Origin: Haliotis rufescens | Lineage: Eukaryota | Direction: 5' to 3' | Length of the DNA stretch: 64,000 nt | Assembly: GCF_023055435.1 (NCBI RefSeq) | Contig: NW_025964001.1 | Location: 42,780,001 to 42,844,000, forward strand | In this document: positions 18,701-47,387 of the stretch, one piece after another | How positions within the stretch are numbered: position 1 is the first letter of the stretch | Layout of the letters: each line of letters begins with the position of its first letter | Position numbers and translations under genes: made by a program | The notes under the pieces: model-generated | Told to the model about the DNA's origin: nothing | Seen by the model: only the letters and a program-made list of their open reading frames with translations | Databases searched by the model: none

Positions 18701-20875
18701 CTAGCCAATAAAATGCCATGGAATTGCAATTTATATATTGAGCTTAATATTAACTTCAGTAACATTACAGCAATGTGTCATCTTTTATATCAATTCATGT
18801 GTGTCAAATTTATTGCCATATATATATGTTGTACTGCATTGCAGTACATGAAAATAATAGATCACTGTCATATAGCTGAAATATTGCTGAGTGCAGCAAT
18901 AGACAACAAGCAAACAAACAATTGTGAATATGATGGTGCATTGTTGTGCTTCTACTGAAGACTGCACATATAGAAAACATCATTCAGCTCCCTATGGCTG
19001 ATAGTTTGATATAATGATGTTTTATAAATGAAATTACAAAATCTCTTGGCAGGCATCAGGGAAGGTTGACGATCATCTTGTACAGATCAATGCGGAACAT
19101 TTTCTGCCCCTGGATGAAAACTCTATTCCTACAGGTACAAAACCCTTATGTGATCTGCATTTCAATACTACACTTGTGTCAGCTGCTGTAACCCATCTCT
19201 ACGCTGCTGCTCCCTATAAATGATTTTTTATAGACTTTTGGGTACAAAGAACTTAGGGCTATTCTATGATGATTTCCAGGGTTCCAGATCCAAATCAGCA
19301 CCACAACTTATATGCTTCTACAACGTGCATGTATCATGATCTAACTTATCTTATACACAATCAAATTCACTGTCTGAACACATTATTTATCTATTCTAGG
19401 TGAGATCCGGGGCGTGGAGGGAACAGAATGGGACCTGAGGACCCCTGTACGACTTGGGGACCGACTTGGACAGGTGCCCGGTGGAAAAGGATTCGACCAC
19501 AACTTCAACCTGTCCCTGTCTGGAGAAAGGCGTCTTGCAGCAAGGTGAGAAGGCAAATTATTAGGAGTAATGAATATTTTCAAATCAAAAACATGATAAG
19601 CATGATGGCACATTTCAAGATAAGTTCAACACAAGCATACATTTTGGATGTCTGAACTGCATGTGATGAAGGTGAAGTGTGATAAAGTGTTTTGTGCCAA
19701 CAGAGTGGAGCACCCCCCGAGTGGACGGTGGATGGAGTGCTACACCACAGAGCCAGGGGTGCAGTTCTACACCAGCTTCTATCTGCAGGACCTCGCGGGG
19801 AAGGGAGGGGCCAACTACTCCCAGTACGGAGGATTCTGTCTGGAGGCTCAGCACTACCCTGACAGCATCAATCAGGTGGGTCAGCACTACCCTGACAGCA
19901 TCAATCAGGTGGGTCAGCACAACCCTGACAGCATCAATCAGGTGGGTCAGCACCTGACAGCATCAATCAGGTGGGTCAGCACTACCCTGACAGCATCAAT
20001 CAGGTGGGTCAGCACTACCCTGACAGCATCAACCAGGTAGGTCAGCACTACCCTTACAGCATCAATCATGTGGGTCAGCACTACCCTGACAGCATCAATC
20101 ATGTGGGTCAGCACTACCCTGACAGCATCAACCAGGTAGGTCAGCACTACCCTTACAGCATCAATCATGTGGGTCAGCACTACCCTGACAGCATCAATCA
20201 GGTGGGTCAGCACTACCCTGACAGCATCAACCAGGTAGGTCAGCACTACCCTTACAGCATCAATCATGTGGGTCAGCACTACCCTGACAGCATCAATCAG
20301 GTGGGTCAGCACTACCCTGACAGCATCAACCAGGTAGGTCAGCACTACCCTTACAGCATCAATCAGGTGGGTCAGCACTATCCTGACAGCATCCCAGCAT
20401 CAGCGTCTGTATGAAAGTCATTCTGCTTTGGAGTTAAAACTTCAAGTGGCCTGTTGAATTTCTGATAATGATGTAGACATGGAATTTATATAATTTTTTT
20501 GTATTGTATAAGAGGGCCCATTTTACTAGCTGGAGACATAATAAAACTAAATATTGTTTTGTTTAATTTATTTCTTAGACCGGAAGCTTTTTAGTAGAGG
20601 TGGCGGGCCCGTGAAATGATAAATAATACATGTATGGCCTTAGATTCATCGGATGAAACCAATGTTATGAAGATGTCTTTCTGTGGGATGACCGTTCTGA
20701 ATAAGGTTAACCAACTAGTGATATCAATGTTGCAATACACATGACCAGTGCTGGCAATGCATCACCTTCTGCAGGCATAAGGTTTCTGTTTCAGCCAAGT
20801 TTCCCAAACTGTATTCTACGTCAAGGGGAAACATACAGACAGACGACATCTTACAAGTTCGGCATCAGCAGCTAA
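12776..20875 (+). CDS. GALM: Aldose 1-epimerase / galactose mutarotase, copy 1 (intact, 342 aa); exons 12776-12831, 14777-14907, 15636-15787, 17982-18191, 19053-19134, 19400-19544, 19704-19875, 20795-20875
   Basis: Eight exons with GT-AG sites give a 1029-nt ORF. Motifs [30 protein letters not shown] (catalytic His), [21 protein letters not shown] (catalytic Glu). CpG/GC-box-rich segment just upstream (~12650-12740). Confidence 0.95.
16310..16511 (+). mobile_element. SINE family D fragment
   Basis: GTAAACGTCTGAGACCTGCAGCACTTCAGGCTTTCCTCCCACATTAAGCTGACAC is the reverse complement of the family D body at ~11935-11987. Confidence 0.6.
16521..16957 (+). mobile_element. SINE family C: one near-full copy (to ~16791, poly-A tail) followed by a partial copy
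   Basis: GTGAAGATCC...GGTCTTCAGCAACCC...GGATTGTCTGGTCTAGACTCGATTATTTACAGACC...GGAATATTGC; the second copy ends in (CAAA)n. Confidence 0.75.
17526..17750 (+). mobile_element. SINE family B, partial
   Basis: GGGGCTAAAACAAGGACTGG...GGAGTCAGTATACTGTGTCTGAGT...GGCATGGTATCTCAGTG is shared with 26081-26424. Confidence 0.75.
19849..20393 (+). repeat. 33-bp splice-donor-spanning tandem array at GALM copy 1 exon 7/intron 7
   Basis: Unit CAGCACTACCCTGACAGCATCAATCAG|GTGGGT (27 exonic + 6 intronic nt), about 16 units. Confidence 0.95.
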
Positions 20876-26663: not shown

Positions 26664-29600
26664 ATACACGTTCCAGAACAAGAACAACGTCATCGTGAGA
26701 GTCCTAGATTATGGCGGCATCATCACTGACATCATCGTCCCGGACAGAAAGGGCAAGATGGAGGACGTCAACCTCGGCTTTGATGATATGGAAGGTAGGC
26801 AGAGGGTAGGGGATATTTTACTTGATTGTCGATGACTACATACATAACAATTACATTGTATGTATATATTCTCTTTTACAATATAAGTATATCGATAATT
26901 AAAAAAACTTTCACATTAATAGATCCCCATCATATTCTTAGATCATCTCATGTTCCTCATTTCTTACATGACACAAGGTTATGCTGGGGGCAGATATATG
27001 GGTGCTCTGATTGGGCGAGTCGCTAACAGGATCGCAGGTGGACAGTTCAGTCTCGAAGGCACCTCCTATTCTCTGGCTGTCAACAACGGACCCAACAGTC
27101 TACATGGGGGAAAGAGAGGATTTGACAAGGTCAGTTGTAGGCCTACGACTGTGTAGGCTACACAACGATGTACTGAACAGCATTCCCTCGCTAAGCGATC
27201 TCTCAATTGGAAATGTGGTGAAAGAAATACGTCTCAATCTACTGTTTGTCTCTTGGCCATCTTCCCGAGGTCATCTTTCCTCGCTTGATTTGATGCACTT
27301 CGCGATGTAAGACCCGTTTTATCACAATATAGACCTTGATCATCGATTAGATCGTCTTGACCGGGCGTTGCCATTTTGTTTGAAACAAATGCAAGTGATG
27401 GAATCGGATTGGTCCATAGGACCACTGGTGGTGCTACGATCGAGCCCAGGAATTCGAGCCTAGTTCGGCAAGGGTGGAAACTGGACTTTAAAAGTCAGTT
27501 AACTCTCTTGCCTCGGGAAGATGTCTCTTTGCTGACAGGAAACACTAGTCGTGTGTCCTAAATACAGATAGCAGAATATGTCAGGTTGTAAACGAATGTA
27601 ACATGTGTCACTATAAATTTTCCTCATTATCATAGTCTGAGTAACCCAATGTGAAGAATGTAGTTACTTGCAGAGTCATATGTTCTGCCAATATGTTTAA
27701 TTCATCATGTTGCAAAACTTCTAGAGATTCTGGGAGGCTAAGGTTGATGGCAACAGACTGAGCCTTAAATATGTCAGCCCTGACGGTGAGGAGACCTACC
27801 CAGGGGAGGTAACTCTGACAGTCACATACGAACTGACAGATGAGAATAAGCTGATCATCGACTACACGGCAACATCGACCAACGCAACACCTGTCAACTT
27901 CACCAACCACGCTTACTTCAATCTGGGAGGACATGTGAGTTGCTATGGTTGTTTCAACTATTCAGGACATGTCAGTTAGCATTGTAATAATAATATGTCG
28001 GTACATATATGTTGATTGGAATATTGATATCGAAGTACTAAGAAAAAACTTCAGACACCGATGGGATTATGGGGGTCTCGTAGCTTCTGGATTCGAAGAG
28101 TAACCACGAATGTGAACCTTGTCCTTGGAGCACCGAACAGTGCCACCACATTGTGACGTGTCCTCAGTGACGCATGACATTATTCCTAGGGTTACTGTGG
28201 TCTTATAGTTATATTGTGTGGCTTAATTCGCTAACACCTGGCTGATCCCTGCGTATATTATTCTCCACTGTTGTGCCTTTTACGTCAACGTTGTCGTATT
28301 GCTAATGAGTTTGGAGATGGTATGTCACACAGATGTGGACCTGCAAGTCGTTCCTCCAACGGTACTTTGCTTATTCATGGCTCTTCGTGACAAAAGCAAG
28401 TTGACGGATAAGGCTTTAGGAGACATCAACAGTTGAAGATTTGAAGTATTTATGTTTGCTACACTGAGTGTTCTTACGTTCTTAGGGCGGTCGGGTAGCC
28501 TAGTGGTTAAAGCGTTCGCTCGTCACGCCGAAGACCCGGGTTCGATTCCCGACATGGGTACAATGTGTTAAGCCCATTTCTGATGTCCCCCGCCACGACA
28601 TTGCTGGAATATTGCTAAAAGCGGCGTAAAATCAAGCTCACTCTCACGTTCTTTACGTTCGTGAAATTCCCGAGGACACGTGTCAGTCATGTTGTATGTT
28701 TTCATTTGTCAGGGCTCAGGGAAGGTTGACGATCATGTTGTACAACTCAATGCAGAGTCTTTCTTACCTGTGGATGACAACGCGATTCCAACAGGTAAAT
28801 TTGTAACTATTGGTCACGGTGTGGTTATATAATGTTTGACATAGGTAGAGACGATATACTGACGATCTTCTACCACTTATAACCATGTCTTACTGTAGTC
28901 TCTGGACTTTTCCAGGTGAGATCCGGAGAGTGGAGGGAACAGAATGGGACCTGAGGTCCCCTGTACGTCTTGGGGACCGGCTTGGAGGGGTGCCCGGTGG
29001 AAAGGGTTTCGACCACAACTTCAACCTGTCCGTGTCTGGAGAAAGGCGTCTTGCAGCAAGGTGGGGACTTTTGAATCTTACCATTTCTGCTCCAATGGGT
29101 AAATACGTTAACAGGATATTTCCACATCATGTTGTATGATCCTTGCAACGTCCATTAGGAAATGATAATGCGTGGATATATATACCTGTTAGGCCTGTTC
29201 AATCTACTGTTGGTATCGCCTTTTTCGGAATCAGGCATAATTGTGTTTTACCATTCGCCCGTCCGTAGCTGCAGGGCAAAGAAGCAACCATTTCCAAATC
29301 ACCCTTCAAAGAATCGGAGAAACCAGTGAACCCAGTAGTGATCTGTTGTCTAGTATCTCTAGGTTTAAGTAATACAGGTTACACACATTTCTGAAATACA
29401 TTTATCGTTTTTATGAGATTTCAGTTTGACTGAACAAAGTAATACAGTGACAAAGTGTGAACTCAATGTATCAGACTATGTACTATTGGCACTCATTGTG
29501 GATCGAACTAATTGGATTATTCGAAACATTAGATGGTCCACATGACTTCGAGTTAACGAGTGTTTGTTGTTGTTCCTTTTTTTGGAAACTAGCATTTTGA

Positions 29601-31160
29601 TATACAAAGATGGTGGCTGATTGCAGAGTGGAGCACCCGCCGAGTGGGAGGTGGATGGAGTGCCACACCACGGAGCCAGGAGTGCAGTTCTACACCGGTT
29701 TCTTCATTAAAGATCTGAAAGGGAAAGAAGGGGCAAACTACTCCCAATTTGGAGGATTCTGTCTGGAGGCTCAGCACTACCCTGACAGCATCAATCAGGT
29801 GGGTCAGCACTACGTTGTCAGCATCAATCAGGTGGGTCAGCACTACCCTGACAGCTTCAATCAGGTGGGTCAGCACTACCCTGACAGCATCAATCAGGTG
29901 GGTCAGCACTACGTTGTCAACATCAATCAGGTGGGTCAGCACTACCCTGACAGCTTCAATCAGGTGGGTCAGCACTACCCTGACAGCATCAATCAGGTGG
30001 GTCAGCACTACCTTGACTCCATCAATCAGGTGGGTCAGCACCTTACAGCATCAATCAGGTGGGTCAGCACTACCCTGACAGCATCAATCATGTGGGTCAG
30101 GACTACCCTGACAGCGTTAACCAGGTGGGTCAGCTCTACCCTGACAGCATCAATCAGGTGGGTCAGCACTACTCTGACATCGTCAATCAGGTGGGCCAGT
30201 GCTACCCTGACAGCATCAATCAGGTGGGTCAACATTAACCAGGTGGGTCAGCTCTACCCTGACAGCGTTAACCAGGTGGGTCAGCTCTACCCTGACAGCA
30301 TCAATCAGGTGCGTCAGCACTACCTTGTCAGCATCAATCAGGTGGATCAGCACTACCCTGACAGTATCAATCAGGTGGGTAAGCACTACCCTGACAGCAT
30401 CAGTCTGGTGGGTCAGCACTTGACAGCATCAATCAGGTGGGTCAGCACCTGACAGCATCAATCAGGTGGGTCAGCACTACCCCGACAGCTTCAATCAGAT
30501 GGGTCAGCACTACCCCGACAGCTTCAATCAGGTGGGTCAGCGCTACCCTGACAGCATCAATCAGGTGGGTCAGCACTACTCTGACATCGTCAATCAGGTG
30601 GGTCAGTGCTACCCTGACAGCATCAATCAGGTGGGTCAACATTAACCAGGTGGGTCAGCTCTACCCTGACATCGTCAATCAGGTGGGTCAGCTCTAGCCT
30701 GACATCGTCAATCAGGTGGGTCAGCACTACCCCGACAGCATCAATCAGGTGGGTCAGCACTACCCTGACAGCATCAATCAGACATGAGAGATAGTATATG
30801 CATCTCCAGCACTATCAAGGGGTAGGCCAGATTGTTTCTTGGGTCTCAAGCACATTTAATGTAGTGGGTCAGATATGACCCTGGGTATCCAGGACTACCA
30901 GGGGATATACATGTATGTATATGGAGAAATTCAATCACACCACACGAACTGTTCTAACACATGTTCCAGTTTTATCTTCAGTATAGAACAATTCGTGTCG
31001 TGTGGATATTTTTTAAACTCGTTATATATGTGCACATATAAAACACACATTAACACCATCACGTGTCCAACTGTTTTAGCCAAGCTTCCCCAACAGCGTC
31101 CTACGTCCCGGGGAGATATACCGGCAGACGACATCGTATACGTTTGGTGTCAGCAACTGA
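26664..31160 (+). CDS. GALM: Aldose 1-epimerase copy 2: exons 2-8 intact (26664-26794, 26978-27129, 27725-27934, 28713-28794, 28916-29060, 29627-29798, 31080-31160); exon 1 not found
   Basis: Exon lengths are identical to copy 1 (131,152,210,82,145,172,81), all GT-AG, with no stops; NHAYFNL and FCLE are retained. Confidence 0.85.
27258..27523. mobile_element. CATCTTCC...GGAAGATG MITE with 9-bp TSD (Mutator-like)
   Basis: Flanks TCTCTTGGC / TCTCTTTGC; the paralogous GALM3 intron (~38017-38025) has a single TCTCCTTGC (empty site). Confidence 0.85.
28484..28645 (+). mobile_element. SINE family A (tRNA-derived, (ACTC)n tail)
   Basis: A box TAGCCTAGTGG, B box GGTTCGATTCCC; flanking ACGTTCTT duplication. 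Confidence 0.85.
29772..30781 (+). repeat. 33-bp splice-donor-spanning tandem array at GALM copy 2 exon 7/intron 7
   Basis: Same unit as in copy 1, about 30 units; the first eight donors are in frame. Confidence 0.95.
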
Positions 31161-35700: not shown

Positions 35701-38700
35701 CTTCTTGGTCTGCTTGGCCTGCTTGGTCTACTTGGTCTGTTTGGCCTTCTTGGCCTGCTTGGTCTGTTTGGCCTTCTTGGCCTTCTTGGCCTTCTTGGCC
35801 TTCTTGGTCTGCTTAGCCTTCTTGGTCTGCTTGGCCTGCTTGGTCTGCTTGGCCATCTTGGCCTGCTTGGTCTGCTTGGCCATCTTGGTCTGTTTGGCCT
35901 TCTTGGCCTGCTTGGTCTGCTTGGTCTGTTTGGTCTTCTTGGCCTTCTTGGTCTGCTTAGCCTTCTTGGTCTGCTTGGTCTGTTTGGTATGCTTGGCCTG
36001 CTTGGTCTGTTTAGTCTGCTCAGCCTTCTTGGTTTGCTTTGTCTGCTTGGTCTGCCTGGTCCTTTTGGTCTGCTTGGCCTGCCTGGTCCTCTTGGTCTGC
36101 TTGGTCTGCTTGGTCTGCATGTTACAATGGAGCTTGGAGAGTCTACGTTTCACTGTTCCAGATACACGTTCCAGAACAAGAACAACGTCATCGTGAGAGT
36201 CCTAGATTATGGCGGCATCATCACTGACATCATCGTCCCGGACAGAAAGGGCAAGATGGAGGACGTCAGCCTCGGCTTTGATGATATGGAAGGTAGGCTC
36301 GAAATAGCAACACATTTTGCATAATTGTCGAGGACACGTTGCACATTGTAGAAGTGTCTACAACAAATGTTACTAAAACACATTAAACACCATTAGATCA
36401 GTCAAGGTCTGTTAAAAATATTGTAAGAAACGATATTGTGTACAGATGTGAATTTGCAACGGCAAATTTTCAAGTGAGTTTCGTGGTTAAACGCCGCTTT
36501 GAACAGTATTTAACTTATATAACCGCATGCCAGTTTGGAGTAATGCAGACTGTCACCACTTTGGTGATACCCACGAGTATGGGTATGGTGCTAACATACC
36601 AATAAATAGACCAGAGCGACCCTGAAGTTGAAGCCATGAGTAACGGTTTCTTGCAAGCCTAATGGACGCGACTCATCACTGAGACGTACGGCACCCATTC
36701 CCTACTCGTGTCAATAAATAATCGAGTCTGGATCAGAGAATCCAGTGACCGATATCATGAGCATCGATCAAAGCAATTTGGATGCAATGACATACATCAA
36801 CCAAGTCATCGAGCCTGACCACCCGACCCCATTTGTCGCATCTTAAGACAAGCATGGGTTGCTGAAGATGTGTTCTAACCCTGATCTTCAAGGGTCAGTG
36901 TTTACGGTGAGGTGAGGTGAAATTGGGTTTAACGAAGCGTGCAAGATTCTTGAACTTACATGGCGACGTGCATGCACGTGTGTGTGGCTGCTTGTACTAG
37001 TCCGGACTGATGCCGATTTATAGTGCTAGCCCAATGAGATATAATGCCACAGTTTAAAATGAACATCCCACTCAGACACAGTATACTGACTCCAAGCCGA
37101 CCAGTCCTTGTTTTAGCCCCTCAATGCCTAACGCTAGACAGGGTAACATCGAGTACCAAGTTTTAACGTCTTTTGGTAAGACGCGGCCGGGGGTCGAACC
37201 CCCGACCTTCCGCTCTCCAGGTCGACGCTCTACCTCTAGACCACGGAGACGGTCAGATGTTTAAGTAACTGAGTATAGGATCAGATGATTAAAATGGTAT
37301 AAGATTCAAGTGAGATGTGGCCAAGACTACAGACATATTTCTACTGAAGATATGAATTTTTATCAAAACATACTCCCTTTTCGCCATTCAGTATTACTTT
37401 TTGCCATACAGTATTATCCCAGCATTTGGAACATCGGCAATGATTTTACTGATTGGAAACCAAAACCTGAGGTAAAACTATACATAAAACATATTCTCCC
37501 GAATGTACTTTCTTCATGACTTAAGGCTATGCTGCGAGTGGGTACATTGGTGCTCTGATTGGTCGAGTCGCCAACAGGATCGCCGGTGGACAGTTCAGTC
37601 TCGAAGGCACCTCCTACTCTTTGGTTGTCAACGATGGACCCAACAGTCTGCATGGAGGAAAGAGAGGATTTGGCAAGGTCGGTGCTAGGCCTCGATTATG
37701 ATGCTTACTTGGACGCAACATATCCTAGATCGCAGGTTTCAGCAACGACCATGTAACTAATATTAATATATAGAAACCTCTCAGACGACGCCTCGAATTT
37801 GTTACTTCAGAATATTAATGGCATTGTCCTGTGCTTCAGGTTCCCCCAACTGTTAGGTACCTGAGCTGACGTTTAAAAAACCGAGGTAAACGGCACCTAT
37901 TCTCTGACGGTGTTCATCCATCTCTTAGCAAACGTTCGTCATAGTTTCACAATATCAATCCATGTTCTGGAGATTCTAGGAAGACATTTAATGATAAAAT
38001 ACGTCTCAATTTACTGTCTCCTTGCTGCCTGGAAACACTAGTCGCATGTCCTTATTACCGATAGCAAAATATGTCAGGTGTTAAACGAATGTAACATGTG
38101 TCACTTTAAATTTTCTTCTGGCACCAAGGAAGCGCTAGCTGCCTCTCTGTCATATATGAGTCATTTTCAAAAGATGTCACTATTTCTGTCCGAACCCATT
38201 ACAAAATTTAAAAAAATATATATTGCAATTCGTTCAGATTATCACCTGCAAAGTAATGCATCTAGTAAAACGGTTATTTTCAATCATTGTGTCATATTAT
38301 GTGTTTTTGATGCGTTTTAAATGGGTAGAAAGTTAATTTTTGGCTGTCCCAGTGCATTTAGATTCAAATTTGAGAAACTGTCATTTTATAAATATTGGCA
38401 TATATCTAATACTACTGTGGTTATCTTATAAAAACTAGATTCATTTAGGAATTTCAGTGTGTAATTTCAATCTAACTGATGTGCACCAGGAGAAAAATAA
38501 GCACCAAAAGTTAACCAAAAAGGTAAGGAACTGATGAGTATTTTCATTTCATGTCTTTCCCATAACGCTATGATTCAATGGAACAGATGCAAAATAGTTA
38601 TTTCAAGTTCCAAGTTTATGTGCCAATTCATGAACAGAAAATTGTGTGAACATTCAGCTTCATGAAGGGACCATTAATTAGTCAATATAATTTTTTATCT

Positions 38701-41700
38701 AATGATTTGTCTTCCCTGTAACAGTCTTTCCTGTAACACTAAATTTTGTTACAGCTAAGACAGATTTTGTTATGGTAATGACTTTCTTCACTTAATAAGC
38801 TATAAAGTAAGAAAACTATTACTTTCTGTTCTTTTTCAACATTCCAACTGAATATTTTAATTCAGCAGTTTGAAAGACAAAGTTGTATTTTATTATTTTG
38901 AGCAACATTGTCAGAACATATTGTTTTTATAAGAAAAGTGTTACAGTAAAGACATATTTTGTTATTGTAATGACATTTTGCAATTGAAAAGTTATAAAGA
39001 AACAAAGTAAATTACTCTCTGTTCTTTTTCAATATTCTAATTAATTATTTCAATCAAGCAGTTTGTAGGATAAACTTGCACTTCATCATTTTATGCAAAA
39101 TTATTGAAACACCTAATTGTTATAAGAAATGTGTTACGGCAAAGACAGTTTTGCTTCAGTAATGACATTCTACATTTCCATAAGACAATCAGAATCAAAG
39201 TAACTATTCTCTGTTATGTTTGATGATATATTGTACTAAAGGGATCAATGAGATTTTAGTTACTTGTTCCTAAGCTTGCTAAAATAAGTGTTTATGATTT
39301 CGGAGTTAATATGGTACCATGGTTATAGAAAAGACAAACTTTACATTTAATATATAATCATGGCAGTGATCATGAAGTACCTAATAGCTTATGGGTATTT
39401 TCTATTTTAAAAGGTCAAACAAGTTTTAGAATACGAGTTTTGGAGGAAAACATTTCTTCACTGCACTAAAATTCAACTCTCCGCGCTTCTTTATTTTCTG
39501 AAAAGGTCTTTGTTGGCAAAGACAAACACTCAAGTATGATAATGTATAGATTTCATAACATCATCAAAATAATTTGAAATTCACTAATGCTGATTTCATG
39601 AAGGTTTACTGAATAGCAATGTGTGCTTGACTGGAATACAAAGCAACTCCAAAGTGGAATTTCAGAGTGGAGCTGTACAACTAAATTAACCATGGCAATG
39701 ACAAATGGTGAGCCGTATCCTTGTACTAGTTATCAAATGGTAACTGCTCACCATCATGTGGCAGTGTACTTGCTTTTGGGACAATTGACAGAGCAGCAGA
39801 AATAACAATGAGAGTAGTCTCTGAACTTGTTGCCAATATGAAGCCAAAGATCTTGATGGAAATTTCCCGTCTCAAGGCATAAAGGAAAGATGTCAGTGTA
39901 AAGAGACATAACTTACCACGTCATTATGCTCAGTATTCTGACATATATGTTCCAGGAACTTGTCTCACAGGGACAACATAGTCCAAAGCATATTTCGACT
40001 CAAAACCCTCAAAGTGAAGAGGGACAAGTCTTTTATGGGAATCTGGCAAATTCACACTTTGGCCAATGTTTTGAACAGACCACTATACACAATCTACCCC
40101 AAACGTGGTTAGTGAAGGAGACAAGGTGAAAGCTGAAGATGCTGTTAGAGATAGAGAGAAAGTGAAGGCTGAAGATGAAGAGGCTAGTGATGGAGAGAAG
40201 TTGAAGGCTGAAGATGAGGAGGCTAGTGAAGGAGAGAAGGTGAAGGCTGAAGATGAGGGGGCTAGTTATGGAGAGAAAGTGAAGAGTGAAGATGAAGAGG
40301 CTAGTGATGGAGAGAAAGCGAAGTCTGAAGATGAAGAGGCTAGTGATAGAGAGAAGGTGAAGGCTGAAGATGAGGGAGCTAGTGATGGAAAGATGGTGAA
40401 GGCTGAAGATGAGGAGGCTAGTGAAGGAGAGGAGGTGAAGGCTGAAGATGAGGAGGCTAGTGAAGGAGAGAAGGTGAAGGCTGAAGATAAGGCTAGTGAT
40501 GGAAAGAAGGTGAAGGCTGAAGATGAGGAGGCTAGTGATGGAGAGAAAGCGAAGAGTGAAGATGAAGAGGCTAGTGATAGAGAGAAGGTGAAGGCTGAAG
40601 ATGAGGGGGCTAGTGAAGGAGAGAAGGTGAAGGCTGAAGATGAGGGGGCTAGTGATAGAGAGAAGGTGAAGGCTGAAGATGAGGAGGCTAGTGAAGGAGA
40701 GAAGGTGAAGGCTGAAGATGAGGGGGCTAGTGATAGAGAGAAAGTGAAGAGGGAAGATGAAGAGGCTAGTGATGGGGAGAAGTTGAAGGCTGAAGATGAG
40801 GAGGCTAGTGATGGAGAGAAGGTGAAGGCTGAAGATGAGGAGGCTAGTGATGGAGAGAAGTTGAAGGCTGAAGATGAGGAGGCTAGTGAAGGAGAGAAGG
40901 TGAAGGCTGAAGATGAGGAGGCTAGTGAAGGAGAGAAGGTGAAGGCTGAAGATGAGGAGGCTAGTGAAGGAGAGAAGGTGAAGGCTAAAGATGAAGCTAG
41001 TGATGGAAAGAAGGTGAAGGCTGAAGATGAGGAGGCTAGTGATGGAGAGAAAGCGAAGAGTGAAGATGAAGAGGCTAGTGATAGAGAGAAGATGAAGGCT
41101 GAAGATGAGGGGGCTAGTGAAGGAGAGAAGGTGAAGGCTGAAGATGAGGAGGCTAGTGATGGAGAGAAAGCGAAGAGTGAAGATGAAGAGGCTAGTGATA
41201 GAGAGAAGGTGAAGGCTGAAGATGAGGGGACTAGTGAAGGAGAGAAGGTGAAGGCTGAAGATGAGGAGGCTAGTGATGGAGAGAAGGTGAAGGCTGAAGA
41301 TGAGGAGGCTAGCGATGGAGAAAAGGTGAAGGCTGAAGATGAGGCTAGTGATGGAGAGAAGGTGAAGGCTGAAGATGAGGAGGCTAGCGATGGAGAAAAG
41401 GTGAAGGCTGAAGATGAGGAGGCTAGTGATGGAGAGAAGGTGAAGGCTGAAGATGAGGAGGCTAGTGATGGAGAAAAGGTGAAGGCTGAAGATGAGGCTA
41501 GTGATGGAGAGAAGGTGAAGTCTAAAGATGGGGAGGCTTGTGATAGAGAGAAGGTGAAGGCTGAAGATGGGGAGGCTAGTGATGGAGAGAAGGTGAAGGC
41601 TGAAGATGAGGCTAGTGATGGAGAGAAGGTGAAGTCTGAAGATGAGGCTTGTGATGGAGAGAAGGTGAAGGCTGAATATGAGGAAACTATAGTGCTGGAA

Positions 41701-44700
41701 ATAAGGTGAGGGCTGAAGATGAGGAGGCTAGTGATGGAGAGAAAGTGTAGGCTGAAGATGAGGCTAGTGCTGGAAAGAAGGTGAAGGCTGAAAATGAGGG
41801 GGGTAGTGATGGAGAGAAAGTGTAGGTTGAAGATGAGGCTAGTGATAGAGAGAAGGTGAAGGCTGAAGATGAAGAGGCTAGTGATGGAGAGAAGGTGAAG
41901 GCTGAAGATGAGAGGCTAGTGAAGGAAAGATGGTGAAGGCTGAAGCTGAGGGGGCTAGTGATTGAGACAATCATCCCAAAGTTACAGAAGACTCCAGAAT
42001 CATCTCATTGTGAGGTTGACAATAACATTTGGTCTACAGTTAAAAGCCACTATGAAGGGGTATAATGTCTTTGGAAGACAGCTATAATCTTTCAACTTTC
42101 TTCTTAGATGGCTTGATGTTTCAAGTGTTGCATTCCAGGTTGTAGTTTAGATTCTTACTTGCAGTTGAAAGTTGTGTTCTAATTGTAGGTCATGTGTTTT
42201 CTGACATTTTCTGAATTGTTCATTCTACAAGATGACCAAGTCTTCATTGTTTCAAGTTTACCACGATTCGTTTACCAGATACTTTCAGTGTTTCACAATA
42301 TTAGTAAAATTAATACTCAACCTCAAAAACTTTGGATTTGATTGTTGATCATAGAAACCATAAAAAGACATGAAAACTATTCTCTAAATGTCTTTAATGT
42401 AACAAAATGTTGTCTTCACCATAACTGTCTTCTATCACATCAATCTGGAGATTTCACAATGAGATCGAAATATAACTATAACTACATCTAGTGGTACCCC
42501 TGTTTGGTAAACCTTTGTTAACTTATGATAGTGAACAAACTAGGCTGACCAAAACTTCGTTTCACATTGTCAGTACTGTAACGTCTTAGGTCTTTCCTGT
42601 AACAGTTATAATGTAGGTCATAGGTAACATTCTTCATATTAATTATTTAAAAATATAAATATCACAAACATGTGCATTGTTATTCAAAGTAACACATTTT
42701 CTATTACAGTAAAATGCGGAAACTGCTTTGTGATCTAAAATGTCTTTGTATGGTAATTTGTTCTGTCATGTAACAAACTTTTGTCCTTACTGTAACAGAT
42801 TTTAGAATTTATCCTTTAAAAAGTTGGAATAAATTTATCAATATCACTGAAAAAAATAATGACTGGTATTACTTTTGCAAACATTATTATATACATGAGA
42901 AACATTTAAGATAATCTTTACCGCTCTTTTCATACTGATGATATGAATTTGCAATGTCTTTTCTGTAACAAATATAGTCAATCCTGTAACATGCATGTCT
43001 TTCCTATAACGCACTCATTTAAAAAATATATATATCTTAATATGTCTTTAGTTTCCGCAATGAGACATAAGTTGATCACAGTTTATCTTTGTTTATCAAA
43101 TAAAAAACCTCCAAGGAATCTTGAAAATTTAGAAATCATAATATTTATGTTGAAGGGGCAACAGTATTTCATAGAATTTACACTGAGTACATATTGGTCA
43201 TTAAGAGACTAAATAAATGCCCTTCATCCTCACTTCAAGTTTAATATACAAAAATATGAAGAAATAAATATGTTTCGTATGTGCTTTTTGCATTTTCATG
43301 AATTTCAAACCAAAATAATTCACACAAACATTGTTATGGGAAAGACAAGCCAAGTTTCAGTTGCCATGGTAACTGGTTATTCCTCTTTCTTAAAAGCATC
43401 ATTAAGACATCCATTTGATGTTACTGACAGCTTCAGATATTTGTTACTCCATTTAAACAAAAAAAAGATATTGTATCAACCATTGGATTTTGTAATTTTG
43501 GAAACTCAAAAAGTGACATCTTTTGAAAATGACTCATATAGCCTGAGTCACCGTTGTGAAGAATGTAGTTGCATGCAGGGTCTTATGCTCTGCCAGTATG
43601 TTTAATTCATCATGTTGCAAAACTTCTAGAGATTCTGGGAGGCTAAGGTTGATGGCAACAGACTGAGCCTTAAATATGTCAGCCCTGACGGTGAGGAGAA
43701 CTATCCAGGGGAGGTAACTCTGACAGTCACATACGAACTGACTGATGAGAATGAGCTGATCATCGACTACACGGCAACATCGACTAAGGCAACACCTGTC
43801 AACTTCAGCAGCCACGGTTACTTTAACCTTGGAGGACATGTAAGTTGCCATGGTAACTTCGAACTGGGGAGACATGAGATGGGAAAGAAGGCTTGTGTAG
43901 AGAGGACTTGCGTCTTTTATAAATTATCCTAGGATCGAATCCAAGATAAGCAATATGCCCTGTCCTCAGGGGTTTCACCAAATTGGTTTGAGCCTACGAC
44001 CTCCATCAACGGTTCTTCTGTCCACTAACACGTTCTGATCCGACTGAAAAGATGCAAACTCAACTCACTTATACACTACTTCAGACACCCCTGTCAGAGT
44101 GAGTGAGTGAATGAGATGATTATTCGCCGCTTCCAGCAATATTCCAGCAATATCACGGCGGGGGACACCAGAAATGGGCAACAGAAATTGTACCCATGTG
44201 GGAAATCATGGTGACGGGTGACGAGGGAACGCTTTAATCACTACCCCACCGCCCCTGTCTTATACTACACGTACTGACAGGTTTAGCAAGAGGAACATCA
44301 CTACTGAATGTGTCTCTTCAATAGCCCGCAATATAACACTTAGACGCACGGTGTCTTGTCCACCCACCCAGTGCAGGCTTGAATTAGGCTCTATATGTTA
44401 ACAAACCAGCTTGTGGTAGTTATTACTGTTCTGGCACAAATTAGAAGGACCGTTGCTTCTTTTGTGGCCATTTACTGTTGCTTTATTGATTTATGAGTGA
44501 GTTGGAATTAACGCCGCTTTGAACAATATTCCAGTGGAAAGCTGGAAGTGATGCAGGTCTCCGACGTTTACCACTTTGGTAAAACCCTCGAGCATAGGTA
44601 TGGTGCTGACAAACCTAGAAACTTAATCGGGTGAACCGGGATTCGAACCCACGATCATAGGTTTTTGGCGCGCTCAAGGGATATAACTCTGCACAGCTAA

Positions 44701-47387
44701 TTGCGGCGCCTTAGATGCTTGGGCTGCCCGTTCCCTATTCATCAAATATTACTGATCCCGGGCGCTGGGGTCACGACGAAGGCCCGGGTTCGATTCCCGA
44801 CATGTATGTGTGAAGCCTTTTTCTGGTGTCCCCCGTCGTGATATTGCTGGAATATTGCTAAAAGCGGTATAAAACCATACTCACTCACTCATTAACCCGA
44901 CATACCGTGATATAAGTGAAACATTGTGATAAAGCGGTGTTAAACCCAACACCATCACTCATGGTCCTCAGAGTTGATAATAATATTACCTCAACATACC
45001 ATCGGGTACCCATTTACTACTGGGTGGGCATAGGTATATTCTTAAGATCAAACATATTCCCCTTGTTCAAGCAGTACACCTAAGCCAGGGCACACGTGTT
45101 GGTCATATTGTATATTTATTTTCTCAGGGCTCGGGGAAAATTCATGATCACGTTGTACAAATCAATGCCGAGTCTTTTTTACCTGTTCATGAACGCGCGA
45201 TTCCAACAGGTAAGTTGCGTGTTGATCTTTGTGTGCATGTAGATAACACTATGACGACTGTTTGTTTGTTTGTTGTTTAACGCCGCAACCTGCAATAGTC
45301 CAGCTAAATGACGGCGGAGTGTAAATAATCGAGTCTGGACCAGACAAGTGAACGATATTTTGAGCAACCATCAACACCGTCGGGGTAGGATGAGATGCAA
45401 TCAACCAAGTCAGCGAACCTGACCATCCGATCTGTCGCCTCAGCATAGGTTGCTGGGGACGAGATCCAACACGGAACCCCCACAGGGCGATGACGGCTCG
45501 TGGTAATATAATGTTTGACATGGGAAGAGACGATATACTGACGATCTTCTACCACTTATAACCATGTCTTACTGTAGTCTATGGACTTTTCCAGGCAAGA
45601 TCCGGAGAGTGGCGGGAACGGAATGGGACCTGAGGTCCCCTGTACGTCTTGGGGACCGACTTGGACAGGTGCCCGGTGGAAAGGGATTTGACCACAACTT
45701 CAACCTGTCCGTGTCTGGAGAAAGGCGTCTTGCAGCAAGTTGGGGTCTATGGAAATGATAAATATTTTCAATGGGTAAATACGGTAACAGGATGATTCAA
45801 CATCATGTTGGTATCGTCCATGCGACTCGGATATGTTAAACCTATCGTCTATTTATCTTTCCGTCGCTATGAAGCCTTCCTTTCATTGATGAATTTCAGA
45901 AACAGAAATCAAGCCAAGGCTTGTTTTAGTATAACCACTAGAATGACAATGACCTAAGTTCGACCTTAGACACATGCCACCCATGTGTAACCTGTTGGAC
46001 AATACATTTTCAGTGCAGTTCACTACAGGTGTTTGTTTTATTGAAGCTGCCATGCAGTGATACCAATAAACCAGATGTTTTATGCCGACAGAGTGGAGCA
46101 CCCGCCCAGTGGACGGTGGATGGAGTGCTACACCACAGAGCCAGGGGTGCAGTTCTACACCAGCTTCTATCTGCAGGACCTCGCGGGGAAGGGAGGGGCC
46201 AACTACTCCCAGTACGGAGGATTCTGTCTGGAGGCTCAGCACTACCCTGACAGCATCAATCAGGTGGGTCAGCACTACCCTGACAGCATCAACCAGGTGG
46301 GTCAGCACTACCTGACAGCATTAATCAGGTTGGTCAGCACTATCTGACAGCATCAATCAGGTGGGTCAGCACTACCCTGACAGCATCAATCAGGTGGGTC
46401 AGCACTACCCTGACAGAATCAATCAGGTGGGTCAGCACTACCTGACAGCATTAATCAGGTTGGTCAGCACTACCTGACGGCATCAATCATGTGGGTCAGC
46501 ACTACCTTGTCAGCATCAATCAGGTGGGTCAGCACTACCCTGACAGCATCAATCAGGTGGGTCAGCACTACCCTGACAGCATCAACCAGGTGGGTCAGCA
46601 CTACCCTGACAGAATCAATCAGGTGGGTCAGCACTACCCTGACAGCATCAATCAGGTGGGTCAGCACTACCCTGACAGCATCAATCAGGTGGGTCAGCAC
46701 CTGACAGCATCAATCAGGTGGGTCAGCACCTGACAGCATTAATCAGGTAGGTCAGCACTACCCTGACAACATCAATCAGGTGGGTCAGCACCTGACAGCA
46801 TCAATCAGGTGGGTCAGCACTAACCTGACAGCATCAATCAGGTGGGTCAGCAATACCCTGACAGCATCAATCAGGTGGGTCAGCACCTGACAGCATCAAT
46901 CAGGTGGGTTAGCACTACCCTGACAGCATCAATCAGGTGGGTCAGCACTACCCTGACAGCATCAATCAGGTGGGTCAGCACCTGACAGCATCAATCAGGT
47001 GGGTCAGCACTAACCTGACAGCATCAATCAGGTGGGTCAGCACCTGACAGCATCAATCAGGTGGGTCAGCGTTTGACAGCAACAGCCAGATGGGTCAGAG
47101 CATTAATCAGCAACAGCACGGGCACTGTTGAAGTGATAGGCCGTAAAGTCGATGAGTGATTAAGGCTTTAGTCTACACAGAAGAGGCAATGACAACGATC
47201 ACAGAGAACCGGTGTTGTTACCATGCATTATACACTGTATATATGCATGTATTTTATTACACATATACGACATACATCAACACCACCATCTCTCCCACTG
47301 TTTCAGCCAAGCTTCCCCAACAGCGTTCTACGTCCCGGGGAGACATACCGGCAGACAACATCGTATACTTTTGGTGTCAGCAGCTGA
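32732..47387 (+). CDS. GALM: Aldose 1-epimerase copy 3, possibly pseudogenising; exons 32732-32787, 36162-36292, 37526-37677, 43630-43839, 45128-45209, 45595-45739, 46092-46263, 47307-47387; the exon-6 donor is TT instead of GT
   Basis: All eight exons have the same lengths as copy 1 and no internal stops. AG|TTGGGG at 45740 versus AG|GTGGGG in copy 2. Motif changes GFGK, NFSSHGYFNL and LPVH. Confidence 0.8.
33817..35078 (-). mobile_element. Tc1-family (DD34E) DNA transposon with decayed transposase (~33986-34970), in GALM3 intron 1
   Basis: TIRs TACTCTTAAAAAAA... and ...TTTTTTTAAGAGTA with TA TSDs. MPRLTEVQRNNVIGRLQAG (HTH), WYSDES, FQQDNARPH-34-SPDLNPIENLW. Stops and frameshifts are present. 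Confidence 0.9.
35322..36118. repeat. 9-bp minisatellite (CTTGGTCTG and variants) just upstream of GALM3 exon 2
   Basis: About 88 tandem 9-mers; source of the (GLL)n and KQT ORFs. Confidence 0.95.
36712..36896 (-). mobile_element. SINE family C, partial
   Basis: Aligns with 9416-9688. Confidence 0.7.
36905..37253 (-). mobile_element. SINE family B
   Basis: Reverse complement of 26081-26424, including the (GAGGT)n tail and tRNA boxes. Confidence 0.85.
39705..40109 (+). pseudogene. Frameshifted OTU-like (vertnin-like) cysteine protease domain inside the Sola-like element
   Basis: Manual translation across frames gives YPC..NGNCSPSCGSVLAFGTIDRAAEITMRVVSELVAN, YAQYSDIYVPG and SFMGIWQIHTLANVLNRPLYTIYPKRG, which match the DGNC and W..xLAxVLxRxIYxIYP blocks of vertnin/OTU-like domains. 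Confidence 0.65.
40110..41962. repeat. 39-bp purine-rich minisatellite (GAAGGTGAAGGCTGAAGATGAGGAGGCTAGTGATGGAGA) inside the Sola-like element
   Basis: About 48 units of 36-39 bp; gives the 534-aa EEASDGEKVKAED ORF. Confidence 0.95.
44098..44254 (-). mobile_element. SINE family A, diverged
   Basis: (GAGT)n tail, CAGCAATATTCCAGCAATATCACGGCGGGGGACACCAGAAATGGG. Confidence 0.75.
44494..44735 (-). mobile_element. SINE family D, near full length
   Basis: Minus-strand head ...TCTAAGGCGCCGC...CGTGGGTTCGAATCCCGG; body shared with 11878-12095. Confidence 0.75.
44770..44891 (+). mobile_element. SINE family A, 5'-truncated
   Basis: B box GGTTCGATTCCC through the (ACTC)n tail. Confidence 0.75.
45259..45487 (-). 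mobile_element. SINE family C, diverged, in GALM3 intron 5 (absent from the GALM2 intron)
   Basis: (GTTT)n tail and TAAATAATCGAGTCTGGACCAGACAA; the GALM2 intron 5 lacks it while downstream intron sequence matches. Confidence 0.75.
46237..47098 (+). repeat. 33-bp splice-donor-spanning tandem array at GALM copy 3 exon 7/intron 7
   Basis: Same unit, about 27 units, many with 1-4-nt deletions. Confidence 0.95.

What the first reader, a model, noticed from the sequence alone, without database searches (positions are those of the whole stretch)
38158..43535. Sola2-like transposon carrying a vertnin/OTU-like protease cargo
Seen: perfect 24-bp TIRs starting GAG and ending CTC, an ATAT duplication, an empty site in GALM2, three ~190-bp subterminal repeats on the left (~38745-39320) and inverted TGTCTTT(C/A)CTGTAACA motifs on the right. 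Inside, missed by the ORF track because of frameshifts, are NGNCSPSCGSVLAFG...EITMRVVSELV and FMGIWQIHTLANVLNRPLYTIYP. Established: GRG...CYC ends with a 4-bp TSD describe Sola2, and those blocks resemble OTU-fold proteases and vertebrate vertnin. Inference: a DNA transposon family with an accessory deubiquitinase-like gene, relevant to the transposon origin of VRTN and possibly to counter-silencing. I could not identify a transposase in this copy.
Basis: partly seen in the sequence, partly recalled or inferred. Interest (0 to 1): 0.7.

Follow-up and report, generated by a model that had tools for sequence, protein, structure and literature searches.

The report
Dead Sola2 transposon with deubiquitinase relic
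This is a broken, non-coding copy of an abalone jumping gene; its intact relatives encode one protein that joins the cut-and-paste enzyme to a predicted ubiquitin-removing protease related to the dead domain of the vertebrate backbone gene VRTN, a design already known from other transposon groups.

Summary
The element is real: 24-bp TIRs, ATAT duplication, paralogous empty site, about 20 sister copies mostly 90-97% alike. It is a non-autonomous Sola2 deletion derivative in an intron of an abalone GALM-like gene. The protease piece is not an accessory gene. It is the middle of a former single ORF. Intact relatives in this genome (1286 and 1050 aa) and 53 of 67 long homologues read Sola2 transposase, then vertnin-type OTU; some end in an acidic linker and a Tudor-like barrel. 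All 67 keep the catalytic Cys and His. The window's family lost the transposase and the His-bearing third of the OTU, shares a founder frameshift and drifts neutrally (23 synonymous, 77 non-synonymous variants). The same OTU type rides on hAT, pogo, MULE and Helitron proteins. OTU-tailed transposases are published for Ginger1; I found no paper for Sola2. Vertnin is a structural relative, but other carriers look closer to it than Sola2. This scan already noted vertnin-type OTU on MULEs and once on a Sola2-like fragment in other genomes. Verdict: dead copy; new variant of a known design; interest moderate.

The parts
38154..38157 (.). left 4-bp target-site duplication (ATAT)
   Evidence: 9 of 10 two-ended copies have a perfect 4-bp duplication
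38158..38181 (+). left terminal inverted repeat, 24 bp, begins GAG
38553..38738 (+). three plus-strand copies of the 15-bp subterminal motif (likely transposase-binding sites, inferred)
38747..39335 (-). three 192-193-bp subterminal units plus a fourth motif; motif on the minus strand; same motif and spacing in the transposase-bearing sister element in L027
39705..40109 (+). relic of the N-terminal three quarters of a vertnin-type OTU domain; Cys codon at 39745-39747 kept; broken by a family-wide frameshift and three private indels (about 39728, 39836, 39970); His-bearing part absent
40110..41967 (+). 39-bp (some 36-bp) tandem array, 48 units, reading as an acidic repeat; likely the expanded acidic linker that lies between OTU and C-terminal barrel in intact relatives
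41968..42065 (+). last ~30 codons of the C-terminal Tudor-like domain and its stop; older sister copies keep more of this domain
   Evidence: 89% DNA identity to L039, where the domain profile hits
42390..43346 (+). right subterminal region with eight plus-strand motif copies and one minus-strand copy
43512..43535 (-). right terminal inverted repeat, ends CTC
43536..43539 (.). right target-site duplication (ATAT)
43630..43840 (+). host exon of the third tandem GALM-like (aldose 1-epimerase) copy; the element sits about 90 bp upstream, in the intron that starts near 37677 (gene name from recalled motifs)
27600..27660 (+). paralogous empty site in the same intron of the second GALM-like copy

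Best explanation
The element is a non-autonomous deletion derivative of a Sola2 DNA transposon, and its protease-like piece is a broken remnant of an OTU domain that intact relatives carry inside the transposase protein, where it likely works as a cis-acting deubiquitinase. Shown: the parent design is one ORF reading Sola2 transposase core, vertnin-type OTU with Cys and His, acidic repeat linker, SH3-like (Tudor-like) barrel; this family kept the ends, part of the OTU, the linker and the last codons. Inferred: it spread by borrowing transposase from a related autonomous Sola2 that recognises the shared ends. Inferred, untested: in the intact protein the tethered OTU strips ubiquitin from the transposase or from chromatin and repair proteins at the cut site (my odds: active isopeptidase about 0.75; main substrate the transposition complex itself about 0.35, nearby chromatin or repair factors about 0.3, other about 0.1).
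For: Family structure and TSDs. Intact fused ORFs in the same genome, L030:3679-7536 and L027:2483-5632, bounded by related TIRs (18-19 of 24 bases identical). The L027 element shares the subterminal motif and 193-bp spacing and is 61% identical in the OTU piece. 58 of 67 long OTU homologues match the transposase, 53 of 67 over 300 aa or more upstream of the OTU; 77 of 121 proteins of 1000 aa or more carry the Sola2 core, all upstream. Cys and His in 67 of 67. OTU fold: model pLDDT 95, best matches Cezanne and A20, E 3e-7, OTUD1 E 7e-6 by profile. In 22 family loci: transposase profile 0 hits, OTU profile hits in 19, none past position 182 of 217. Shared frameshift in 18 of 18 aligned copies; 23 synonymous versus 77 non-synonymous variants. 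Older copies keep more of the C-terminal domain.
Against: The direct autonomous parent with the identical TIR was not found; the own-genome searches score only the best candidates. Sola2 membership rests on a by-eye motif match to a published alignment, not a profile score; Pfam gave no transposase family. Seven Sola2 loci in this genome have transposase and barrel but no OTU, several with long open frames and near-identical copies, so the OTU is dispensable for Sola2 transposition. The selection test of the intact L030 ORF against decayed relatives was uninformative. No enzyme activity or expression was shown.
Confidence: 0.9

Rival explanations
1. One reading: the family carries a stand-alone accessory deubiquitinase gene that helps it escape silencing.
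For: The OTU piece is retained in 19 of 22 family loci while the transposase is gone, and the Cys codon is kept.
Against: His-bearing part missing in all 19; founder frameshift in 18 of 18; neutral variant pattern. In intact relatives the domain is fused to the transposase.
Confidence: 0.03
2. The non-autonomous family makes a functional acidic repeat protein or RNA from the 39-bp array, and this is why the middle was kept.
For: A 544-codon open frame runs through the array in the window; the array is present in most copies.
Against: A 39-bp unit without stops is open by construction, on both strands. Unit number ranges from 0 to 78 and sister arrays are interrupted by stops and frameshifts. 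The array matches the position of the acidic linker in intact relatives.
Confidence: 0.04
3. In the intact protein the OTU domain is not a deubiquitinase but cuts the polyprotein itself or a ubiquitin-like modifier, releasing or maturing the transposase.
For: Some viral OTU-fold proteases process other substrates (established knowledge, recalled); the domain has a long insertion relative to OTUD1-type enzymes.
Against: Closest solved folds are the ubiquitin-chain editors Cezanne and A20; the domain occurs at either end of unrelated transposases, which fits a portable trans-acting activity better than a fixed cleavage site.
Confidence: 0.15

Closest known systems
Sola2 DNA transposons (Bao et al. 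2009, not readable here; alignment in Additional file 10 of PMC3627910), nearest rows Sola2-1_BM and Sola2-1_Hrobusta
   Same: Transposase blocks DFSENY, HFGAS-x2-Q-x-T-x-HTG, SDGP-x2-QYR, GHGKG-x2-D match by eye; short TIRs; 4-bp AT-rich TSD.
   Different: The 12 animal Sola2 proteins in that alignment end 19-196 aa after the last block (four marked incomplete), leaving no room for an OTU; the abalone protein has about 600 aa there, with OTU and linker. The window copy has no transposase.
Ginger1 transposases with C-terminal OTU or Ulp1 domains (Bao et al. 2010, PMC2836005)
   Same: A DDE transposase fused to a C-terminal OTU protease; the paper also lists OTU in Helitrons and proposes a role for deubiquitination in transposition.
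   Different: Different transposase superfamily; here the OTU is of the long vertnin type, most members score weakly against Pfam OTU (24 of 64 at E up to 0.1), and a Tudor-like barrel follows.
Vertnin (VRTN), inactive OTU-like protein of vertebrates (PMC10318531, PMC3024977)
   Same: Predicted structures of a clam homologue and chordate vertnin align at TM 0.67-0.69 over 208-218 residues, against 0.44-0.56 for other OTU clusters; motif order matches by eye.
   Different: Vertnin lacks the catalytic residues, has the domain at its N-terminus followed by HTH repeats, and has no transposase core. Vertnin-like residues are commoner in a group of ~2000-aa proteins than in Sola2 carriers.
A20 / Cezanne (OTUD7B) OTU deubiquitinases
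   Same: Best solved-structure matches, E 3e-7 to 2e-6, TM by query 0.5-0.6; Cys and His motifs in the same order.
   Different: 12-16% identity; chain preference unknown.

Membership tests
Sola2 | Sola2-type acidic-triad transposase | tested here: met
   Met in the intact relatives L030 and L027 by motif match to the published Sola2 alignment (by eye, no score). Absent from the window copy, which is linked to them by TIR, subterminal motif and OTU similarity.
Sola2 | 4-bp AT-rich target-site duplication | tested here: met
   9 of 10 two-ended copies perfect (8 ATAT, 1 ATTT), 1 with one mismatch; feature stated in PMC3627910.
Sola2 | Short TIRs with GRG...CYC termini (recalled from Bao 2009; not read) | tested here: met
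   GAG...CTC here and in L030, L027; GGG...CCC in the sister family L053.
Sola2 | Cut-and-paste mobility | not testable with these tools
   Dispersed copies with different flanks and an empty paralogous site show past mobility only.
OTU deubiquitinases | OTU fold | tested here: met
   For the intact domain of L030.
OTU deubiquitinases | Catalytic Cys and His, intact relatives | tested here: met
   C833 and H992 of P0001; 67 of 67 long homologues.
OTU deubiquitinases | Catalytic Cys and His, window family | tested here: not met
   His-bearing segment deleted in the window and in all 19 loci with an OTU hit.
OTU deubiquitinases | Cleavage of ubiquitin conjugates | not testable with these tools
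   Needs a biochemical assay.
Vertnin family | Long vertnin-type OTU-like domain | tested here: met
   Atlas structure search with homologue P0086; many homologues carry automatic names Vertnin or VRTN-like.
Vertnin family | Vertnin middle and HTH regions, no catalytic residues | tested here: not met
   No such Pfam hit in P0001 or P0002 (the Vertnin_mid family may be newer than this Pfam copy); catalytic residues present; architecture differs.
Tudor / royal-family readers | Tudor barrel with methyl-lysine cage (C-terminal domain) | tested here: inconclusive
   Model pLDDT 94; best Z 7.7 (rmsd 1.4, 48 aligned, MTF2) and 7.4 (PHF19), tied with KOW, BAH and chromo barrels and within background; Foldseek best E 0.06. 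Cage not tested.

The most novel reading that the evidence does not exclude
Vertnin-type OTU is a portable, active counter-ubiquitin module that has been swapped among Sola2, hAT, pogo, MULE and Helitron transposases; in mollusc Sola2 it pairs with a Tudor-like reader so that the transposase binds a marked nucleosome and erases its ubiquitin, and vertebrate VRTN is a catalytically dead, domesticated copy of this transposon module.
Probability: 0.25. Interest if true: 0.7.

Novelty: new variant of a known kind. Interest (0 to 1): 0.38.

Why it matters
The copy itself is ordinary decay. The family behind it supplies intact, catalytically complete relatives of vertnin's dead OTU domain, fused to a transposase that also occurs without it in the same genome. 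That makes a question open since 2010 (what transposon-borne ubiquitin proteases do) testable with a matched pair, and adds support to a transposon origin of VRTN, a vertebral-number gene, without naming Sola2 as the donor. It also flags that many mollusc proteins auto-named Vertnin are transposases.

Tried and rejected
Pfam on the two intact ORFs and six pieces: no meaningful hit. Search for the direct autonomous parent: 41 transposase matches and 76 TIR-like matches in the genome; none of the loci I fetched joined this TIR to a transposase; I fetched 12 of the about 35 distinct transposase-match places and not all TIR matches. 39300-39730 shows no match to any stored protein's N-terminus. 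Expression: no RNA holder on record was listed; contigs of two runs guessed to be RNA cover coding and non-coding parts alike, and three small-RNA runs gave 0-14 reads: no verdict. Selection on the intact ORF against decayed relatives L049, L050: dominated by decay, no verdict. Transposase tree of 82 sequences falls into three groups with no outgroup, so gain versus loss of OTU is unresolved. OTU tree: hAT, pogo and one Helitron carrier fall among Sola2 carriers, with mixed support; 40 of 92 Sola2 rows were sampled, vertnin was not available, so no donor is claimed. A 2-bp AT duplication with ATGAG ends was considered and rejected on copy L018. Bao 2009 and a second review could not be read. 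No complex prediction was run. Literature searches without a paper on Sola2 plus OTU or on a transposon origin of vertnin's OTU: (listings only); Repbase Reports and most subscription journals are not searched, so the fusion may be annotated there.
Full report
Observation. The 5378-bp element has perfect 24-bp TIRs and ATAT on both sides. The TIR occurs 25 times exactly in the 1.33-Gb genome, control 0. Of 15 fetched loci plus the window, 10 had both ends (2231-5544 bp); 9 of these 10 have a perfect 4-bp duplication, 8 ATAT and 1 ATTT, which rules out a 2-bp reading. Outside the array, 15 of 20 listed sister loci are 89.8-97.2% identical to the window and 5 are 80.7-84.5%. The window holds three tandem GALM-like genes (name from recalled motifs); the element lies in an intron of the third, and the second lacks it, with a 25-bp indel beside the site. 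Subterminal units and motifs are as described. A source record identical to a protein of this genome is named Haliotis rufescens.

What the protease piece belongs to. Searching the genome with the second peptide block gave 25 matches, among them frames of 1050 and 1286 codons. Both read transposase, then the OTU-like domain, then an acidic tandem repeat; the 1286-aa ORF (P0001) ends in a 90-aa domain. They lie within related TIRs, 18-19 of 24 bases identical to the window's, in elements of 6862 and 6937 bp; the first has an ATAT duplication. The 6937-bp element shares the subterminal motif and 193-bp spacing and is the closest transposase-bearing relative found (61% in the OTU block), but its ORF looks partly decayed and it is not the direct parent. 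The transposase blocks match the Sola2 alignment in Additional file 10 of PMC3627910, best the silkworm and leech rows (by eye).

State of the window's family. Profiles built from the homologues were run on six-frame translations of 22 loci: transposase 0 hits; OTU hits in 19, none past position 182 of 217, while the His lies near 203; C-terminal domain hits in 4 older loci. All 18 aligned copies share a one-base frameshift between the two blocks; the window adds three private indels. Among 16 of these 18 copies (L012 and L022 left out as truncated) 100 distinct single-base variants over 128 codons split 23 synonymous and 77 non-synonymous, close to the neutral expectation. After the array, about 30 codons correspond to the end of the C-terminal domain. 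So the element is a fused gene with two internal deletions and an expanded linker, amplified after it died.

The fused protein elsewhere. The OTU region found 67 proteins of 707-2251 aa; 58 match the transposase and 53 do so over 300 aa or more upstream of the OTU. Named ones are bivalves and gastropods, often auto-named Vertnin; two rows labelled as bacterial metagenome bins are probably host DNA (inference). All 67 keep Cys and His. Of 114 shorter hits 20 match the transposase; 86 keep both residues, 23 are cut short at one and 5 have lost one. With a profile, 77 of 121 proteins of 1000 aa or more carry the Sola2 core. Others carry hAT, pogo-type DDE_1, MULE or Helitron domains (31 proteins scanned), and eight look Zator-like by recalled motifs (unscored). 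The profile reaches 802 clusters at E 1e-30 and 5292 at 0.001. Seven Sola2 loci in this genome have the core and C-terminal domain but no OTU, and the eight complete animal Sola2 proteins of the published alignment have tails of 101-196 aa, so the OTU is an insertion in a subset.

Folds. The OTU model (pLDDT 95) matches Cezanne and A20 best (E 3e-7; 53 matches at E up to 0.001); the profile hits OTUD1 at 7e-6. An invariant upstream Asp (D805, 144 of 155) could be the third catalytic residue as in A20 (recalled, untested). The C-terminal domain is an SH3-like barrel, best Z 7.7 to the MTF2 Tudor, not above background.

Vertnin. PMC10318531 classes vertnin as an inactive OTU-like protein (passages); PMC3024977 noted a transposase-like HTH (passages and supplement 9 part 1). 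A clam homologue aligns to chordate vertnin models at TM 0.67-0.69, behind one unnamed cluster at 0.73 and ahead of other OTUs. At three vertnin-like sites the six ~2000-aa proteins score 5, 5 and 4 of 6, the 92 Sola2 carriers 1, 2 and 2 of 92. Sola2 carriers are therefore cousins, probably not the donor; no tree with vertnin could be built.

Mechanism. Shown: architecture, conservation of catalytic residues, decay of this family. Inferred: cross-mobilisation through shared ends; a tethered deubiquitinase acting on the transposition complex or on chromatin and repair proteins at the cut site, as PMC2836005 proposed for Ginger1 (passages). Counter-silencing is one untested version of this.

Prior knowledge. 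OTU tails are published for Ginger1 and Helitrons. Eight searches gave no paper on Sola2 with OTU (listings only). Passages were read in PMC4455052, PMC5751038, PMC10294476, PMC3627910, PMC5199201, PMC5753468 and bioRxiv 2021.09.26.461848; none mentions it, and their supplements, other than file 10 of PMC3627910, were not seen. The main text of PMC6446971 has no occurrence of OTU or protease (supplements not seen). Earlier notes of this scan report vertnin-type OTU on MULEs and on one Sola2-like fragment in other genomes; look-ups by sequence and by genome gave nothing.

Verdict. Observation confirmed; interpretation partly supported. Dead non-autonomous Sola2 copy; the parent design is a new variant of a known kind. 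Interest 0.38.

Noticed in passing
proteins P0214-P0217, P0219, P0233: About 2000-aa proteins with a central active-looking OTU and a long coiled-coil tail, no Pfam hit in the four scanned; their OTU shares the most vertnin-like residues. Nature unknown; best lead for the VRTN donor.
   Followed up: partly
L053:552-4356 (G000:C2:15363552): A second non-autonomous Sola2 family, ends GGG...CCC, ATAT duplication, about 22 TIR matches, keeping only the C-terminal barrel.
   Followed up: partly
L043-L048, L052: Sola2-type transposases of 850-907 aa without OTU, several in near-identical copies, with different terminal repeats; likely the recently active Sola2 families of this genome.
   Followed up: partly
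L030:2710-9571: The intact 6862-bp element appears to sit inside a high-copy repeat: a deep contig skips it cleanly. One full copy and four or more decayed relatives on contig C90.
   Followed up: no
window 15600-47400: Three tandem GALM-like genes, each with a 33-bp minisatellite in the same intron (19848-20393, 29771-30781, 46236-47098).
   Followed up: no
window 38480: This copy lacks about 165 bp present in the sister copies after element position 322.
   Followed up: no
L023:5867-6868, minus strand: A 334-codon frame whose tail recalls aerolysin-like pore-forming domains (resemblance from memory, untested); unrelated flank of a TIR fragment.
   Followed up: no
P0008, P0026: Sola2-OTU proteins filed under bacterial symbiont genome bins (Sedimenticola, Thiodiazotropha); probably bivalve host contamination.
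   Followed up: no
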